Source: Fidelibacterota bacterium | GTDB taxonomy: Bacteria > Fidelibacterota > UBA8477 > JABMPR01 | Assembly (NCBI GenBank): GCA_030596225.1 | Contig: JAUVKO010000001.1 | Span: 1-30,100, forward strand | Length of the DNA stretch: 30,100 nucleotides | Direction: 5' to 3' | Shown: in pieces, positions 26,412-29,936 of the stretch | How the letters are laid out: the number at the start of each line of letters is the position of its first letter | Position numbering within the stretch: the stretch's first letter is position 1 | Notes under the pieces: model-generated | What the model saw: the letters and a program-made list of their open reading frames with translations, nothing else | Databases searched by the model: none | What the model was told of the DNA's origin: nothing | Made by a program: the position numbers and the translations under genes

Positions 26412-26460
26412 CTACCTCAAATATACCATCCATCTGCGTCCTAAAGGACTACGATGGATA
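26412..26460 (-). repeat. Hairpin plus orphan ATG-GTA-TAT-TTG-AGG-TAG (MVYLR*) copy
   Basis: Hairpin ATCCATC...GATGGAT (26428-26459) overlaps a second MVYLR-stop at 26429-26412, downstream of the true stop at 26466. Confidence 0.75.
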
Positions 26461-26465
26461 AATCT

Positions 26466-27383
26466 TTATCTTAAGTAAACCATTTTGATGGTTTGCGCAT
26501 TGTCCCCGGCCTGAAGTCTTGCGAAGTACACACCGGTGCTGACTTGCTGACCGTGACTGTCTGTTCCGTTCCATTTTGCCTCGTAGTGTCCAGCCGGTTT
26601 CGACTCGTAGACTAGAGTCTGGATGTTTCGTCCTTGGATATCATAGATGTTGATTGAGACTGTTGAGTGTTCTGGTAGTTCATACATGATGGTTGTAACT
26701 GGATTGAATGGGTTGGGGTAGGACATTGCTGATAAATGATGCTGTTCCAGATTCCCACTTCTGCATGGGTCTATAGATGTTTCATGGACGGGATTTCGGT
26801 ATACAAAAACCACCCATTTAGCAACATTAAAATCGGTGCTTCCGACTGTTGGTGTGTAGAGATACGTCATCACATGAAATGGATATTCAGCAAATTGATC
26901 TATTATTGTTCGTTTTGAAAGATCACGCCATATAGAATCAGCTCTTAATTCAATATCCGGGAATGCCTCAACAGGCCATTGATCTGCCTCAAAATTATAA
27001 CTTGATGTAGCTTGATTTGGTGTCTGATCAGAATTCGGGAATGAGTCTGGAGGAAAAAAATACTCTGGGATACTTATGGAACCTGTGCCCATCCATACTA
27101 TTGTTGCGAAAAATACCGTATCTTCTGTGCAAGGATATGAAAACATGTCCCAGCCAAAATCCACTGGTGGTTGATAAGTGAAGATTAAAGGCACGCCAGA
27201 AGAGTCGTAGGATCCACAGATTGGGTAGTTTTGTATCTGCCCTCCTTCAAATTCACTCGTTAGAAAATCATAGATGAAGATTCCGATTGAGGTCGAATCA
27301 TCTGGAAGGTCCCAGGATCGTTGTCCTGAAAGCGAGATGCCAGCTAGAAGCGTCACAATAATAATCGTTAATTTGTAACTCAT
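26466..27383 (-). CDS. T9SS-type CTD protein of unknown function (start re-called at 27383)
   Basis: MSYKLTIIIVTLLAGISLSG signal peptide with AAGGAAGG RBS. CTD SYPNPFNPVTTI...NAQTIKMVYLR. Confidence 0.82.
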   Translation of the reverse strand: MSYKLTIIIVTLLAGISLSGQRSWDLPDDSTSIGIFIYDFLTSEFEGGQIQNYPICGSYDSSGVPLIFTYQPPVDFGWDMFSYPCTEDTVFFATIVWMGTGSISIPEYFFPPDSFPNSDQTPNQATSSYNFEADQWPVEAFPDIELRADSIWRDLSKRTIIDQFAEYPFHVMTYLYTPTVGSTDFNVAKWVVFVYRNPVHETSIDPCRSGNLEQHHLSAMSYPNPFNPVTTIMYELPEHSTVSINIYDIQGRNIQTLVYESKPAGHYEAKWNGTDSHGQQVSTGVYFARLQAGDNAQTIKMVYLR

Positions 27384-27495
27384 TTTATCCTTCCTTTGGA
27401 CACCAACGCCATGCACAACTCACGATCAGCTTGTGAAACGGATCTTTTGGGGTGCGATCCATGTTATGTAATTTATTGACTGGCATATTAAAACG

Positions 27496-28236
27496 CTATG
27501 GAAAGCCCAGGTTCTCGAATTCACTAATAAGCTCACGATACTCGGTATCTGTCGTGCCAGCTGATGATCCCAGATAATTTGGTTGTTGGTCAACATAGTT
27601 AAAGAGGTGATAAGTATACGGATATGGGTAAGTAATCAGTGAGAATAGATACTTATTACTGGTATCACCCCTAATTATTGCTAGAGGAAAGTACGGTCCA
27701 ATTGTCCAAAATAAACCGTTTGGCTCTGCGTATTCAACTCCTGGAATAACTTCGTAATACTCACTAATCAATACAGGGTGGTATCCAGGGTTGAGATAAA
27801 GCTCCCCAAATCCTGACGAGCTGATATGGCCGACAGAATCCGGGCGCATATCTGGGAGGATTGATCCCCAACCTTGGAAATTATCATTCTTCATTTGAAC
27901 CAGAATTGAGTCCTCCGCACCTACTAATATCATATTGGGTACCCACGGGGTTCCAAAACGTAAATCGTCTACAAAAGGAAAAGAATCTCGATAGGTTTGT
28001 CGTAAGAAGTTGAGTAAGTACAATTCCCGCTTGAAGGATGAATCTGAGGCTGTTAGGGATTGATCTAGATAATATGCAATGATCTCTGCCTCTAGACTGT
28101 CTTCTTGAGTAAGTCCAAGATCTGGATATAGATCTGGTTCATCGAGGGGATCAATAATCTCCTCACAGTTCCAAAAGATTGTGAATATCAATATGGTTAC
28201 TAAGAGGTTTTTGGGTTTTATTATTCTATCATTCAT
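27496..28236 (-). CDS. Lipoprotein of unknown function
   Basis: MNDRIIKPKNLLVTILIFTIFWN-C lipobox-like signal. GAGGAGGGG RBS. Confidence 0.72.
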   Translation of the reverse strand: MNDRIIKPKNLLVTILIFTIFWNCEEIIDPLDEPDLYPDLGLTQEDSLEAEIIAYYLDQSLTASDSSFKRELYLLNFLRQTYRDSFPFVDDLRFGTPWVPNMILVGAEDSILVQMKNDNFQGWGSILPDMRPDSVGHISSSGFGELYLNPGYHPVLISEYYEVIPGVEYAEPNGLFWTIGPYFPLAIIRGDTSNKYLFSLITYPYPYTYHLFNYVDQQPNYLGSSAGTTDTEYRELISEFENLGFP

Positions 28237-28263
28237 ATTCCCCTCCTCAAGTTTGGGTATAAC

Positions 28264-28310
28264 TCATCGCAAATAAACCATCTATCTACGCCCTACAGGC
28301 TACGATAGAT
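28264..28310 (-). repeat. Hairpin plus orphan ATG-GTT-TAT-TTG-CGA-TGA (MVYLR*) copy
   Basis: Hairpin ATCTATC...GATAGAT (28280-28310) overlaps a second MVYLR-stop at 28281-28264, downstream of the true stop at 28317. Confidence 0.75.
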
Positions 28311-28316
28311 AAATCT

Positions 28317-29936
28317 TTATCTCAGGTAAACCATTTTGATGGTTTGTGCATTCTCCCCAGCCTTTAACCTCGCGAAATACATCCCGGCAGCGACTTGCTT
28401 GCCATTGCAGTCTGTTCCGTTCCAACTAGTCTCGTAGCTTCCTGGATTCATATTCTGGTTGACTAGCGTCATCACTTCTCGTCCTGAAATATCGTAGATG
28501 ACTAGTGACACATCTGATCGTTCTGGTAGTTCGTATTCAATTGTTGTGCTTGGGTTGAAGGGGTTGGGAAATGCAGTCAGGCTAAATTTATCTGGTCTTA
28601 GGTGTGTATCCTCAATAGAAGTGCTTGTATTAAATATACGCTGAACGAGGTCTGAGACCTCCTTTAATTCATCAACAGAATTTAATGTTGAACTTCCTTT
28701 TGCATGTAGAACTGATAACACGATCTCTGCAGAGTCTCCGGGGTTAAAGTTAAAGGGACCAGCATTCAACAACATTCGACGGTCATAATACTCGGCACCA
28801 TAATCGCCATCCACCCATATACTATCTGTTAATCCAATATTTTCACTTGGGTTTCCTGGGACTGCGAATCGTGTGACGCGGCCGGTATTTGGATCAATAA
28901 CTGGTGCTCCATCCCAATGAAGACCAGAGAGGGCGTTGTGTACATTCTCAGATCCCCATGGATCATCCCACTCCCGGTCATCAGATCGTATTAGCATAAA
29001 TGATGTCATTGGCAGGTTAATAAACCCGTCTTTTTCCATCCCGAAACCATAAGCTTTATCGTTTGTATTATGACTTGGCACAGCAACTTGCAGAAGATCA
29101 ACGCCAACGCTTGGAACTATATCTCCGAACTCGCTATCTGATCCACGATTATAGCAAAATCCTAAGCTTCTAGTACTGTCACAGCCTATCAAATCATCAC
29201 CTGGGTCACCAAGGTCAGTATCGGTCCAGAATCCAAAGTTCATATCTTCAATGTAATTTCCACCTTTATTGAAGATCTGGAGTTTCACGAACATAATATC
29301 TTCATATATATTCCACTTATTGTAACCCCATATTGTCACCCTTACTTCAAGACCAAGGATCTCTGGGTCATTCAGTATGTTTGTTGAGACACAATCCTGC
29401 ATGACATAATAAAGGACCTGCTCTCCCAGGAATTCGGGATGATCTATGCCTTGAGGCAATGGATTATAGATACCATCACCATCCTTATCTATCCATGGTG
29501 CTCCCTGATAAACCGGCCAGTTGGCAAAATCTATGTTTCCATCAGGATTCTCCATGTCAGACAGGTTGATTTTATAGATTCTATTTGTATTATCCTCTGG
29601 ATTTGAATTCCATGGACCTGGGACAAACTCAGATGCAAATTCGACAAGAGATGTGCGTATCTCTTCATTCACCTTTCCTGAGAACCATGGACCTGCTGAA
29701 AAAATTGTTCTGGTATGATCGTCAACAGGCCAATTAAGTCCAAATTCTCTTTCCAAACTTTGGTGTGACACGATAGAGCCATTATTATCAGTGATACAAT
29801 AGATCTGATTCACATCAAAGCTATTCAGATTCACTGATTCTTGTACAGATATTGTTGACTGCTTTATTTCTTTGGCCAATCCAATGCTTGCATTCATTGC
29901 CAGTAACAGAATACTAACATAGAAGCTGTACTTCAT
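28317..29936 (-). CDS. T9SS-type CTD protein of unknown function (start re-called at ATG 29936)
   Basis: MKYSFYVSILLLAMNASIGLA signal peptide. DKDGDG putative Ca-binding loop. CTD FPNPFNPSTTI...NAQTIKMVYLR. Confidence 0.82.
   Translation of the reverse strand: MKYSFYVSILLLAMNASIGLAKEIKQSTISVQESVNLNSFDVNQIYCITDNNGSIVSHQSLEREFGLNWPVDDHTRTIFSAGPWFSGKVNEEIRTSLVEFASEFVPGPWNSNPEDNTNRIYKINLSDMENPDGNIDFANWPVYQGAPWIDKDGDGIYNPLPQGIDHPEFLGEQVLYYVMQDCVSTNILNDPEILGLEVRVTIWGYNKWNIYEDIMFVKLQIFNKGGNYIEDMNFGFWTDTDLGDPGDDLIGCDSTRSLGFCYNRGSDSEFGDIVPSVGVDLLQVAVPSHNTNDKAYGFGMEKDGFINLPMTSFMLIRSDDREWDDPWGSENVHNALSGLHWDGAPVIDPNTGRVTRFAVPGNPSENIGLTDSIWVDGDYGAEYYDRRMLLNAGPFNFNPGDSAEIVLSVLHAKGSSTLNSVDELKEVSDLVQRIFNTSTSIEDTHLRPDKFSLTAFPNPFNPSTTIEYELPERSDVSLVIYDISGREVMTLVNQNMNPGSYETSWNGTDCNGKQVAAGMYFARLKAGENAQTIKMVYLR

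What the first reader, a model, noticed from the sequence alone, without database searches (positions are those of the whole stretch)
26412..28319. Orphan duplicated MVYLR-stop tails behind a covarying hairpin after two CTD genes
Seen: after the real KMVYLR-TAA of the genes ending at 26466 and 28317 come AGATTT, a 31-32 nt hairpin, and then a second ATG-GTx-TAT-TTG-(AGG/CGA)-stop (26429-26412; 28281-28264). The hairpin's 3' arm ends in the AT of the orphan ATG. Its arms covary (ATCCATC/GATGGAT vs ATCTATC/GATAGAT). The orphan tails differ at synonymous positions yet both still encode MVYLR*. Gaps are 36 and 35 nt, so conserved read-through is unlikely. Established: duplication of a gene's 3' end is the footprint of site-specific integration that restores the target gene. 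Inference: incoming DNA inserted at the last codons of a resident CTD gene, replacing its tail and leaving the old one as a scar.
Basis: partly seen in the sequence, partly recalled or inferred. Interest (0 to 1): 0.76.

Follow-up and report, generated by a model that had tools for sequence, protein, structure and literature searches.

The report
Hairpin repeat cassette with spare gene tail
Two secreted-protein genes of a deep-sea Neomarinimicrobiota bacterium each end in a small mobile-looking DNA hairpin that arrived with its own replacement for the gene's last codons and pushed the original last codons behind it as a silent leftover; the pattern recurs across the group and seems to spread by copying between related gene ends.

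Summary
Both T9SS-CTD genes end TIK-MVYLR-TAA, then AGATTT, a 31-32-nt GTAG-tagged hairpin, then an untranslated second MVYLR-stop.

It is not one local duplication. I found the same tail-hairpin(s)-orphan layout at 22 CTD genes in 8 genomes of the genus and in two other families of the phylum. Every hairpin array that abuts a CTD stop codon ends in an orphan tail. About 60 copies of the hairpin elsewhere have none.

The hairpin belongs to a dispersed REP-like repeat family. Real tails next to it are atypical (TAC, TAA fused to AGATTT). Orphans look like ordinary hairpin-free tails, so the orphan is the displaced resident tail.

The 316-aa gene's CTD is a mosaic. Its body resembles SVVK-type paralogs and its last ~45 nt resemble the neighbouring 545-aa gene. 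Module-bearing CTDs are not one clade.

Best reading: a palindromic cassette carrying a replacement tail, copied among CTD paralogs by gene conversion, with the two tail copies as homology arms. No integrase, cargo or linked transposase was found.

"Site-specific integration" is not.

The scan has noted similar hairpin-plus-duplicated-tail modules on other DNA.

The parts
28317..29954 (-). T9SS cargo gene (545 aa) with C-terminal sorting domain ending TIKMVYLR
   Evidence: ORF listed. Pfam FlgD_ig 3.4e-11 and Por_Secre_tail 8.3e-8.
28317..28334 (-). Functional tail ATGGTTTACCTGAGATAA (MVYLR, stop) of copy 2
   Evidence: It is of the TAC...TAA type that goes with the hairpin.
28311..28316 (-). 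Leader AGATTT, fused to the stop codon. It is part of the repeat element.
   Evidence: It precedes the hairpin also in copies away from CTD genes.
28280..28310 (-). GTAG-tagged imperfect palindrome (REP-like hairpin), ATCTATC/GATAGAT outer stem
   Evidence: Fold. Covariance model R1 scores 42.7 bits, E 9e-8. The same outer-stem variant occurs in G006.
28264..28281 (-). Orphan tail ATGGTTTATTTGCGATGA (MVYLR, stop), untranslated. TAG stands in frame directly before it.
   Evidence: An identical 18-mer orphan occurs in G006:C63.
26466..27416 (-). T9SS cargo gene (316 aa) with the same kind of CTD
   Evidence: It shares only the CTD with the 545-aa protein.
26466..26512 (-). Grafted 3' segment of copy 1: the last ~45 nt of the coding sequence (..AGDNAQTIK-MVYLR-TAA), which resemble the 545-aa gene and not the SVVK-type paralogs that the CTD body resembles
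   Evidence: Informative sites switch from 40:19 (or 35:22) in favour of C52/C159 to 15:1 (or 16:0) in favour of copy 2. Best cut at -42/-51, p about 5e-6 to 9e-6 before correction for scanning.
26460..26465 (-). Leader AGATTT of copy 1
   Evidence: Identical in both copies.
26428..26459 (-). GTAG-tagged imperfect palindrome (REP-like hairpin), ATCCATC/GATGGAT outer stem
   Evidence: Fold -15.4 kcal/mol, z -5.7. R1 scores 44.6 bits, E 2.7e-8.
26412..26429 (-). Orphan tail ATGGTATATTTGAGGTAG (MVYLR, stop). Its first 12 nt match copy 2's orphan (11 of 12). Its last 6 nt differ at 4 of 6 positions. It resembles the tail of the SVVK-type gene at 22599 (TAT TTG AGG).
27496..28236 (-). Downstream lipoprotein-like gene (246 aa), context only. 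It starts 27 nt after orphan 2.
   Evidence: No Pfam match. Its G016 homologue lies 60 nt (listed TTG start) after an SVVK-type CTD gene with no hairpin or orphan.
25547..26326 (-). Downstream lipoprotein-like gene (259 aa), context only. It is barely related to the 246-aa gene.

Best explanation
What it is: each locus is a three-part module.
1. A functional CTD tail (..TIK-MVYLR-TAA).
2. A payload: the leader AGATTT plus one or more GTAG-tagged imperfect palindromes. These belong to a dispersed, REP-like repeat family of Neomarinimicrobiota.
3. An untranslated second copy of the tail.

How it works (inferred): the module is copied from one CTD gene to another by homologous recombination. This could be gene conversion, or template switching between paralogs.
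- The conserved end of the CTD coding sequence serves as the left homology arm.
- The orphan tail serves as the right arm, pairing with the recipient's own tail.
- The incoming piece carries a complete tail and a TAA stop, so the recipient gene stays intact.
- The recipient's own last codons end up behind the palindrome as a silent relic that slowly decays.

The palindrome thus enters and persists in gene ends without an element-encoded enzyme. As REPs do elsewhere, it may additionally act as a 3' RNA hairpin or terminator.

Shown: the architecture, its recurrence, the polarity (real tail goes with the module, orphan looks like a resident tail), mosaic CTDs, and non-monophyly of the hosts.

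Inferred: the recombination mechanism, and the role of the orphan as a homology arm.

Unknown: how the first module arose.
For: 1. Recurrence. There are 22 CTD genes with tail-TAA-leader-hairpin(s)-orphan in 8 genomes of the genus. They show two junction types: hairpin|ATGGTnTAT, and hairpin|ACn-ATC-AAr-ATG.., which keeps TIK. There are two further cases with different tails in other families (KMILLR-stop..DKFLLK-stop).

2. Association. Every hairpin array that follows a CTD stop ends in an orphan. About 60 hairpins elsewhere have none. Forty further CTD ends, sampled without regard to hairpins, have neither.

3. Repeat family. Model R1 finds 117 copies at E<0.01 in 19 of 23 genomes of the genus, and copies in 6 of 53 genera of the phylum. 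The inner stem covaries: 8 double changes at one pair, and 0 of 500 shuffles reach the observed score.

4. Real and orphan tails have separate coding histories. They differ at 3-7 of 18 nt, yet 16 of 20 orphans still read as a tail plus stop. A target duplication followed by neutral decay predicts 0.2 of 20.

5. Polarity. Real tails by the hairpin are TAC 13 to TAT 3 and TAA 21 of 22. Naive tails are TAT 29 to TAC 8 and TAA 10 of 40 (p = 1e-4 and 8e-8). Orphans are indistinguishable from naive tails in the Tyr codon.

6. Exchange between genes.
- Copy 1's CTD body matches SVVK-type paralogs and its last ~45 nt match copy 2.
- G006 loci L013 and L014 are about 70% identical in the CTD body. They are 97-100% identical from about -65 through two hairpins and the orphan.
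- G015 and G017 share a 49-nt core at 98% between flanks at about 60%.
- The left boundaries differ from pair to pair.

7. Host CTDs are not one clade: AU p = 0.0005, lnL difference 89.

8. Orphans decay. Examples are MVYLP, LVYLW, MLFLE, LIFLQ, an indel, and a lost stop, in 6 of 22. They are often preceded by a stop or lie out of frame, so they are not translated.
Against: - No close strains were available, so no filled/empty allele pair was seen. Orthologues of the 545-aa gene at about 35% identity lack the module, but they are too distant to count.
- The right homology arm is only 18-27 nt, which is short for RecA-type exchange.
- No donor-like first stage was found: a hairpin after a CTD stop without an orphan appeared in 0 of 22. 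The origin of the module is therefore unexplained.
- The loci are not independent. Several are paralogs, and the statistics treat them as independent.
- The CTD tree rests on 66 columns.
- In copy 1 versus copy 2 alone, third-position identity rises only from 57% to 62-73% towards the 3' end. The graft is shown by the three-way comparison, not by that pair.
- Two loci (G015:C222 with TAG-TAA-AGATTT; G016:C20 with TAA-TGATCA-AGATTT) keep a stop of their own before the module. This would also fit an element that carries the orphan at its 3' end.
Confidence: 0.6

Rival explanations
1. Transposase-driven insertion. The unit [L-R-stop + AGATTT + hairpin + ATGGTnTAT] is a single-hairpin, IS200/IS605- or REP/RAYT-like element. 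An HUH Y1 enzyme inserts it right after the Val-Tyr codons of the tail. Its left end supplies Leu-Arg-stop, and its right end mimics the target.
For: - The junction always sits exactly at the 3' foot of the hairpin.
- GTAG-tagged palindromes are the hallmark of REPs thought to be mobilised by RAYTs (PMC3733652, PMC2817692).
- Y1 transposase genes occur in 19 of 23 genomes of the genus.
- Another repeat family in G001 has the same geometry: an 8-nt direct repeat, a 15-nt leader ending AGATTT, the hairpin, and the repeat again (bump at offset 15).
- Identity between G015 and G017 ends near the predicted element ends.
Against: - The codon before the predicted cut is not conserved: TTAC in 7 loci, and otherwise CTAC, ATAC, GTAC, ATTT, CTTG, CTGT, TTTA, ATTA, TTTC.
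- Shared sequence often runs 22-65 nt further left than the predicted end.
- Flanking direct repeats are not a general property of the family.
- The own genome's Y1 gene is IS200-like (73 bits, against 24 bits for REP_Tyr_transpos) and is flanked by other hairpins.
- R1 finds nothing near six Y1 loci.
Confidence: 0.17
2. One ancient tail duplication around a hairpin, inherited with the CTD by paralogy. The orphan is kept by selection for a function, for example as the U-rich tract (GGUUUAUUUG) of a terminator or as part of a longer RNA or DNA structure.
For: - Between the two window copies, the whole block from CTD to orphan is homologous at 67-100% and the flanks are not.
- The orphan start is T-rich and follows a stable hairpin.
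- RNAfold can extend the helix by pairing AGAUAAA with UUUAUUU.
- REPs are known to act as RNA 3' elements (PMC3733652).
Against: - Module-bearing CTDs are not one clade.
- Copy 1 is a mosaic.
- The Arg/Lys codon and the stop of the orphans are kept, and a U-tract does not explain that.
- 6 of 22 orphans are decayed.
- The extended folds are only marginally better than shuffles, z -2.6 and -1.9.
- The terminator scan does not call either site.
- The variable third base of the Val codon would break the proposed extended helix.
Confidence: 0.08
3. Deletion scar. A hairpin sat after gene A, and a deletion running from the hairpin's end into the tail of the next tandem CTD gene B removed B. The orphan is then B's tail.
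For: - CTD genes lie in co-oriented tandem arrays here.
- Orphans without any hairpin exist, such as TSVVKMVYLR-stop between a non-CTD gene and a CTD gene in contig C159.
- Real and orphan tails sometimes share rare residues, such as MIYLK with MIYLK.
Against: - The model needs many CTD genes with a hairpin after the stop and no orphan. None was seen in 22 arrays or in 40 sampled ends.
- It does not explain why real tails beside hairpins are a distinct TAC/TAA class.
- It does not explain why the last ~45 nt of copy 1 are copy-2-like.
Confidence: 0.07
4. Classical site-specific integration of a larger element that carried an alternative gene end, as e14 or phage 21 does in icd. The element was later lost except for its ends.
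For: A duplicated 3' end with synonymous differences is the known footprint of such integrations (own knowledge: e14 and phage 21 at icd of E. coli).
Against: - No integrase, no cargo and no att-like identical core were found.
- The same minimal layout appears at 22 loci, with the hairpin as the only constant content.
- The left boundaries vary.
Confidence: 0.03

Closest known systems
GTAG-tagged REP / BIME elements (Di Nocera et al. 2013, PMC3733652; Nunvar et al. 2010, PMC2817692)
   Same: Short imperfect palindromes tagged by GTAG. They are dispersed in many copies, often in arrays and nested, and mostly lie within 20 bp downstream of ORF 3' ends. Some are found inside coding regions.
   Different: - The GTAG-tagged stem-loop is enclosed by a second, conserved 7-bp stem (A[TC]C[CT]ATC/GATGG[AG]T) plus a leader AGATTT.
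- Copy number per genome is low: 1-17 detectable copies.
- No RAYT flanked by these hairpins was found.
- At CTD genes the array is always bracketed by a functional tail and a vestigial tail. I did not find that in the REP papers I read, nor in three full-text searches (one returned an error).
Integrative elements that regenerate the 3' end of their target gene (e14 and phage 21 in icd; islands in tRNA genes). From my own knowledge, not tested here.
   Same: The incoming DNA carries an alternative end of the gene. The gene stays functional, and the old end is left as a pseudo-3' fragment that differs at synonymous sites.
   Different: Here the insert is 37 to about 170 nt with no recombinase or cargo. 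There is no identical core. The boundaries vary, and the target is a whole paralog family rather than one locus.
Rickettsia palindromic elements and other intragenic REPs (cited in PMC3733652)
   Same: Palindromic repeats colonise protein-coding genes without destroying them. The same genome here also has in-frame GTAG palindromes inside the CTD loop before the last strand.
   Different: RPEs are read through and add residues to the protein. Here the palindrome stays outside the reading frame, because a complete tail and stop come with it.
Domain shuffling and gene conversion among T9SS surface proteins of Porphyromonas gingivalis (PMC5266723)
   Same: Cargo genes that share C-terminal modules exchange segments by homologous recombination.
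   Different: That work concerns adhesin and catalytic domains and allelic exchange between strains. It involves no palindromic payload and no displaced tails.

Membership tests
REP (repetitive extragenic palindrome), GTAG super-family | A 20-40-nt imperfect palindrome able to form a stem-loop | tested here: met
   Fold energies -15.4 and -13.0 kcal/mol, z -5.7 and -3.4. 89% of cells are paired, and the inner stem covaries.
REP (repetitive extragenic palindrome), GTAG super-family | A GTAG tetranucleotide at one end of the stem-loop | tested here: met
   GTAG (G[TA]AG) stands directly 5' of the variable inner stem in all 21 aligned copies. CG[TC]AG follows on the 3' side.
REP (repetitive extragenic palindrome), GTAG super-family | High copy number, dispersed across the genome, often in arrays | tested here: inconclusive
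   1-17 hits per genome at E<0.01, 117 in 19 of 23 genomes. Arrays and nested copies exist. The count is far below the more than 100 per genome typical of REPs. The genomes are fragmented MAGs, and repeats assemble poorly.
REP (repetitive extragenic palindrome), GTAG super-family | A cognate RAYT (TnpA-REP) gene flanked by the same palindromes (a REPtron) | tested here: not met
   Y1_Tnp genes are present in 19 of 23 genomes. The own genome's copy scores as IS200 (73 bits) and not as REP_Tyr_transpos (24 bits, cut-off 80), and it is flanked by other hairpins. R1 finds no hairpin in six Y1 loci. Only six loci were examined.
Site-specific integrative element with target 3'-end regeneration | A recombinase gene and cargo between the duplicated ends | tested here: not met
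   36 and 35 nt lie between stop and orphan in the window, and at most about 170 nt in relatives. The content is hairpins only.
Site-specific integrative element with target 3'-end regeneration | An identical core (att) sequence at both junctions | tested here: not met
   Real and orphan tails differ at 3-7 of 18 positions in all 20 loci compared.
IS200/IS605-derived miniature element (PATE) | Insertion 3' of a fixed tetra- or pentanucleotide target, without target duplication | tested here: not met
   The four bases before the predicted left end vary: TTAC, CTAC, ATAC, GTAC, ATTT, CTTG and others.
Intrinsic terminator | A G+C-rich hairpin directly followed by a U-tract | tested here: inconclusive
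   The orphan start gives UGGUUUAUUUG after the hairpin. The consensus scan did not call either site. It cannot handle the 3x3 internal loop. No RNA data were available.
Programmed read-through or ribosomal bypass (T4 gene 60 type) | An open, conserved path or matched take-off and landing codons that change the protein | tested here: not met
   Copy 1 is in frame and open, but copy 2 is 35 nt with TAG in frame. Relatives have stops or frame shifts. A hop would give the same C-terminus.

The most novel reading that the evidence does not exclude
These are enzyme-free selfish cassettes. A palindromic payload has captured the last codons of a secretion-signal domain on both sides, and so uses an entire paralog family (20-60 CTD genes per genome) as landing sites. 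It propagates purely by gene conversion.

The orphan would be kept codon-like not by translation but because it must keep matching real tails in order to act as a homology arm.

The scan's earlier notes describe hairpins bracketed by duplicated gene tails in CPR, Peribacteria and other phyla. If those reflect the same process, this would be a general and so far undescribed way in which REP-like repeats colonise gene 3' ends and drive swapping of gene ends.
Probability: 0.35. Interest if true: 0.75.

Novelty: new variant of a known kind. Interest (0 to 1): 0.6.

Why it matters
- It gives a concrete, testable account of how small palindromic repeats settle at the very end of coding sequences without harming the gene.
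- It shows that the conserved T9SS sorting-domain DNA serves as a recombination handle, through which the ends of unrelated cargo genes are exchanged. That explains the mosaic CTDs in these arrays.
- It gives annotators a rule for such loci: the second tail is a relic, not a mini-ORF, a read-through extension or a prophage scar.
- If the same logic holds for the similar modules noted in other phyla, it would add a transposase-independent route of spread to the biology of REP-like repeats.

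Tried and rejected
- **Read-through or extension.** Copy 1 is open and in frame (RFIHRSPLGRRW-MVYLR). Copy 2 and relatives have stops or shifted frames. Rejected.
- **Ribosomal bypass.** It would give an identical C-terminus, so there is no reason for it. Rejected.
- **Pentapeptide mini-ORF.** Type II orphans also keep TIK upstream of the Met codon without any start. 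Several orphans start GTG or CTG because that base covaries with the hairpin arm. Rejected.
- **Target-site duplication plus neutral decay.** It expects 0.2 of 20 orphans to be intact, and 16 are. There is no locus-wise correlation of synonymous codons between real and orphan tails. Rejected, unless real tails are overwritten very often by conversion.
- **Simple tandem duplication of a two-gene unit.** The N-terminal bodies are unrelated and the downstream genes barely related. Rejected.
- **Known RNA family.** Rfam finds nothing at E up to 1.
- **Link to a RAYT or IS200 gene.** None found.
- **General direct repeats flanking all hairpins.** Only a small bump, caused by one family in G001.
- **Search for empty sites.**
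  - Logan contigs of four runs are too short and break at the repeats. One variant contig has the orphan ATGGTTTATTTGCGGTAG.
  - The metagenome scan gave one relative of the 246-aa gene with a possible decayed tail (AKVVLLRR) and no CTD gene.
  - The exact-protein look-ups returned only the same sequence or nothing.
  - Genus representatives are too distant, about 35-50% identity.
- **My first impression of a sharp identity jump between copy 1 and copy 2 alone.** It did not hold up. The breakpoint needed the three-way comparison.

Full report
**1. The observation**

On the minus strand, the 316-aa gene (26466..27416) and the 545-aa gene (28317..29954) both end ..TIK-MVYLR-TAA. Both carry a FlgD_ig/Por_Secre_tail sorting domain.

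Fused to each stop codon is AGATTT. A 32- or 31-nt hairpin follows:
- a 7-bp outer stem, ATCCATC/GATGGAT or ATCTATC/GATAGAT;
- a 3x3 internal loop, GTA/GCA or GTA/GTA;
- a 4-bp inner stem.

The last two bases of the hairpin are the AT of a second ATG-GTx-TAT-TTG-(AGG|CGA)-stop, at 26429-26412 and 28281-28264. The gaps from stop to orphan are 36 and 35 nt.

The hairpins are far more stable than shuffled sequence (z -5.7 and -3.4). The degenerate tail pattern occurs 7 times in the window against 0.01 expected. Contigs assembled independently from other samples span both modules.

**2. Not a local curiosity**

The genome is a 2.07-Mb MAG of Candidatus Neomarinimicrobiota from a cold seep.
- A six-frame scan of the genome found two more orphan tails behind hairpin sequence (contig C113, and C172 behind half a hairpin) and one without any hairpin (C159). 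Contig C196 carries a fourth, decayed module.
- A DNA search of relatives hit 10 of 22 other genomes of the genus.
- Reading those loci gave the same layout again and again: 22 CTD genes in 8 genomes, with one to six hairpins between real tail and orphan.
- There are two junction types. In type I the hairpin runs straight into ATGGTnTAT. In type II it runs into ACn-ATC-AAr-ATG-GTn, so the orphan also keeps TIK.
- Two further cases with quite different tails lie in other families of the phylum (KMILLR-stop, hairpin dimer, DKFLLK-stop).

**3. The hairpin is a repeat element**

A covariance model built from 21 copies finds 117 copies at E<0.01 in 19 of 23 genomes of the genus. It also finds copies in 6 of 53 sampled genera of the phylum.
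- The outer stem and the GTAG/CGTAG flanks of the inner stem are conserved. The inner stem varies with compensatory changes.
- Rfam has nothing.
- GTAG-tagged short palindromes lying within about 20 bp of ORF 3' ends, in arrays and sometimes inside genes, are the definition of GTAG REPs (PMC3733652).
- The expected partner, a RAYT flanked by the same palindromes, was not found. Y1 transposase genes are common in the genus. The own genome's copy is IS200-like with other hairpins around it, and the model finds nothing in six Y1 loci.
- I therefore call the element REP-like and do not file it as a REPtron member.

**4. Association with orphan tails**

In a census of about 83 hairpins, every array that starts right after a CTD stop ends in an orphan tail. 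About 60 hairpins in other contexts have none. Conversely, 40 further CTD gene ends, taken from the protein search without regard to hairpins, have neither hairpin nor orphan. In this sample, then, the hairpin is never found at a CTD gene end without the duplicated tail.

**5. Which tail is the newcomer?**

Real and orphan tails of a locus differ at 3-7 of 18 bases, almost always silently. Sixteen of 20 orphans still read as tail plus stop. A copy of the real tail hit by the same number of random changes would do so in 0.2 of 20. The two tails therefore have separate coding histories, and a target-site duplication is not the explanation.

| Tail class | Tyr codon (TAT : TAC) | Stop = TAA |
|---|---|---|
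| Real tails beside hairpins | 3 : 13 | 21 of 22 |
| Naive (hairpin-free) tails | 29 : 8 | 10 of 40 |
| Orphans | 16 : 2 | 13 of 21 |

- Real versus naive: p = 1e-4 for the Tyr codon and p = 8e-8 for the stop.
- Orphans versus naive, Tyr codon: p = 0.47.
- Orphans versus naive TIK-type tails, stop: p = 0.68.

The TAC..TAA tail travels with the leader and hairpin. The orphan looks like an ordinary resident tail. Orphans also decay: 6 of 22 have a replaced last residue, an indel or a lost stop.

**6. Evidence for copying between genes**

- The two window proteins share only the CTD, and their downstream genes are barely related.
- Copy 1's CTD is a mosaic. From -216 to about -50 it sides with the SVVK-type paralogs on contigs C52 and C159 (informative sites 40:19 and 35:22). 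From there to the stop it sides with copy 2 (15:1 and 16:0). The best cut lies at -42/-51, p about 5e-6 to 9e-6 before correcting for some 220 cut points.
- Its orphan (TAT TTG AGG) resembles the tail of the SVVK-type gene at 22599.
- Between the two copies, identity holds through the hairpin and the first 12 nt of the orphan (11 of 12). It then drops to 2 of 6 in the Arg and stop codons, and to background beyond.
- In G006, two paralogous loci are about 70% identical in the CTD body. They are 97-100% identical from about -65 through two hairpins and the orphan.
- G015 and G017 share a 49-nt core at 98% between flanks near 60%. G000 and G006 share 22 identical nt before the stop.
- The left boundaries differ from pair to pair, as conversion tracts do.
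- A tree of the CTD body, with the last 14 residues left out, rejects a single clade of module-bearing CTDs (AU p = 0.0005). Several of them group with SVVK-type, module-free CTDs.

**7. Mechanism proposed**

The simplest account is a cassette: [end of CTD + tail + TAA] - [leader + REP-like hairpin(s)] - [tail copy]. It is copied into other CTD genes by homologous recombination or template switching.
- The left exchange falls anywhere in the conserved CTD end.
- The right exchange falls between the donor's orphan and the recipient's own tail.
- The recipient keeps a working C-terminus. What remains of its own tail lies behind the hairpin.

This explains five things:
1. the perfect association of hairpin and orphan;
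2. the polarity of the two tails;
3. the variable left boundary;
4. the drop of identity inside the orphan;
5. the restriction of real tails to the TIK type.

Steps not shown: the exchange itself, whether 18-27 nt suffice as a right arm, and how the first module arose. No hairpin-after-stop without an orphan was seen. A transposase-driven variant remains possible (see rivals). The hairpin may also serve as an RNA 3' structure, but no transcript data were available.

**8. Comparison with what is known**

The module resembles REPs/BIMEs in the payload, and e14/phage 21-type integrations in the regenerated gene end. It is neither.
- No RAYT link was found.
- There is no recombinase, no cargo and no att core.
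- I found no description of palindromic repeats bracketed by a functional and a displaced copy of a gene's last codons, in the REP papers read (PMC3733652) or in three full-text searches (a fourth returned an error).
- This scan's earlier notes report similar hairpin-plus-duplicated-tail modules in other phyla. Those are unchecked leads, not support, but they suggest the pattern may be general.

**9. Verdict**

Its mechanism, site-specific integration, is not.
- The kind of thing is a new variant of known kinds: a REP-like repeat combined with gene conversion among paralogs.
- Interest is moderate to high, chiefly because it offers a testable, possibly general route by which palindromic repeats colonise gene ends and shuffle secretion-signal DNA.

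Noticed in passing
window 26351-26404 and 20175-20228 (minus strand): A ~54-nt promoter-like module (TTGAAA-16-TACATT) starts 7 nt after orphan 1. It recurs upstream of the PorV-like gene, where a non-CTD gene precedes it and there is no orphan.
   Followed up: partly
window 22640-22700 (minus strand), gene 22599..24908: An in-frame GTAG-tagged palindromic insertion (..RLQ-VVDPATSGAGAPHSNGVH-YSSVVKMVYLR) lies inside the CTD loop before the last strand. G006 locus L017 has a similar insert (VVDPATGR). CTD 3' DNA seems to be a hot spot for palindromic repeats.
   Followed up: partly
own genome contigs C159, C52, C64, C113 (coordinates): A second palindrome type, GGAAGATCTTCC or GGAAATATTTCC, is fused to CGA-TAA of CTD genes. 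It is followed by (C)GG-TAG, possibly a two-codon relic of the same kind. In C113 it sits in front of a truncated older tail end (AAGATAA), the GTAG hairpin and a type II orphan, which gives three layers.
   Followed up: partly
own genome contig C159, minus strand position 1452, and C172, minus strand position 2828 (coordinates): Orphan tails without a full module. TSVVKMVYLR-stop lies between a non-CTD gene and the start of a CTD gene. MVYLR-stop lies behind half a hairpin with no CTD gene upstream.
   Followed up: partly
all module loci: The last sense codon and the leader covary. AGA/CGA-TAA goes with AGATTT (14 of 15), and AAR-TAA goes with AAATTT/AATTT (4 of 6). Fisher p = 0.011. The leader hexamer looks like a copy of codon plus stop. 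Unexplained.
   Followed up: partly
G001 loci L026-L030, L058-L060, L072, L083: A larger repeat family reads GGCGATCTCAAAATTGCCAC, then 15 nt ending AGATTT, then the same hairpin, then TTGCCAC..CTCGCAAAGAC. This is an 8-nt direct repeat flanking leader plus hairpin outside any CTD gene.
   Followed up: partly
own genome contig C69:5600-6400: An IS200-like Y1 transposase gene is flanked on both sides by the same pair of small hairpins (GGGCTAAAGCCC and CCCCGGCATnAATGCCGGGG-TAATTGATA) in direct orientation.
   Followed up: no
L132 (G111:C79:8840-9150): A hairpin of the family is followed by a tandem array of GATAAAC heptamers that runs to the contig end.
   Followed up: no
L056:1090-1130 (metagenome contig Ga0307989_1020959): A 71%-identical relative of the 246-aa downstream gene is preceded by ..AKVVLLRR.., possibly a decayed CTD tail. 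No CTD gene lies upstream.
   Followed up: partly
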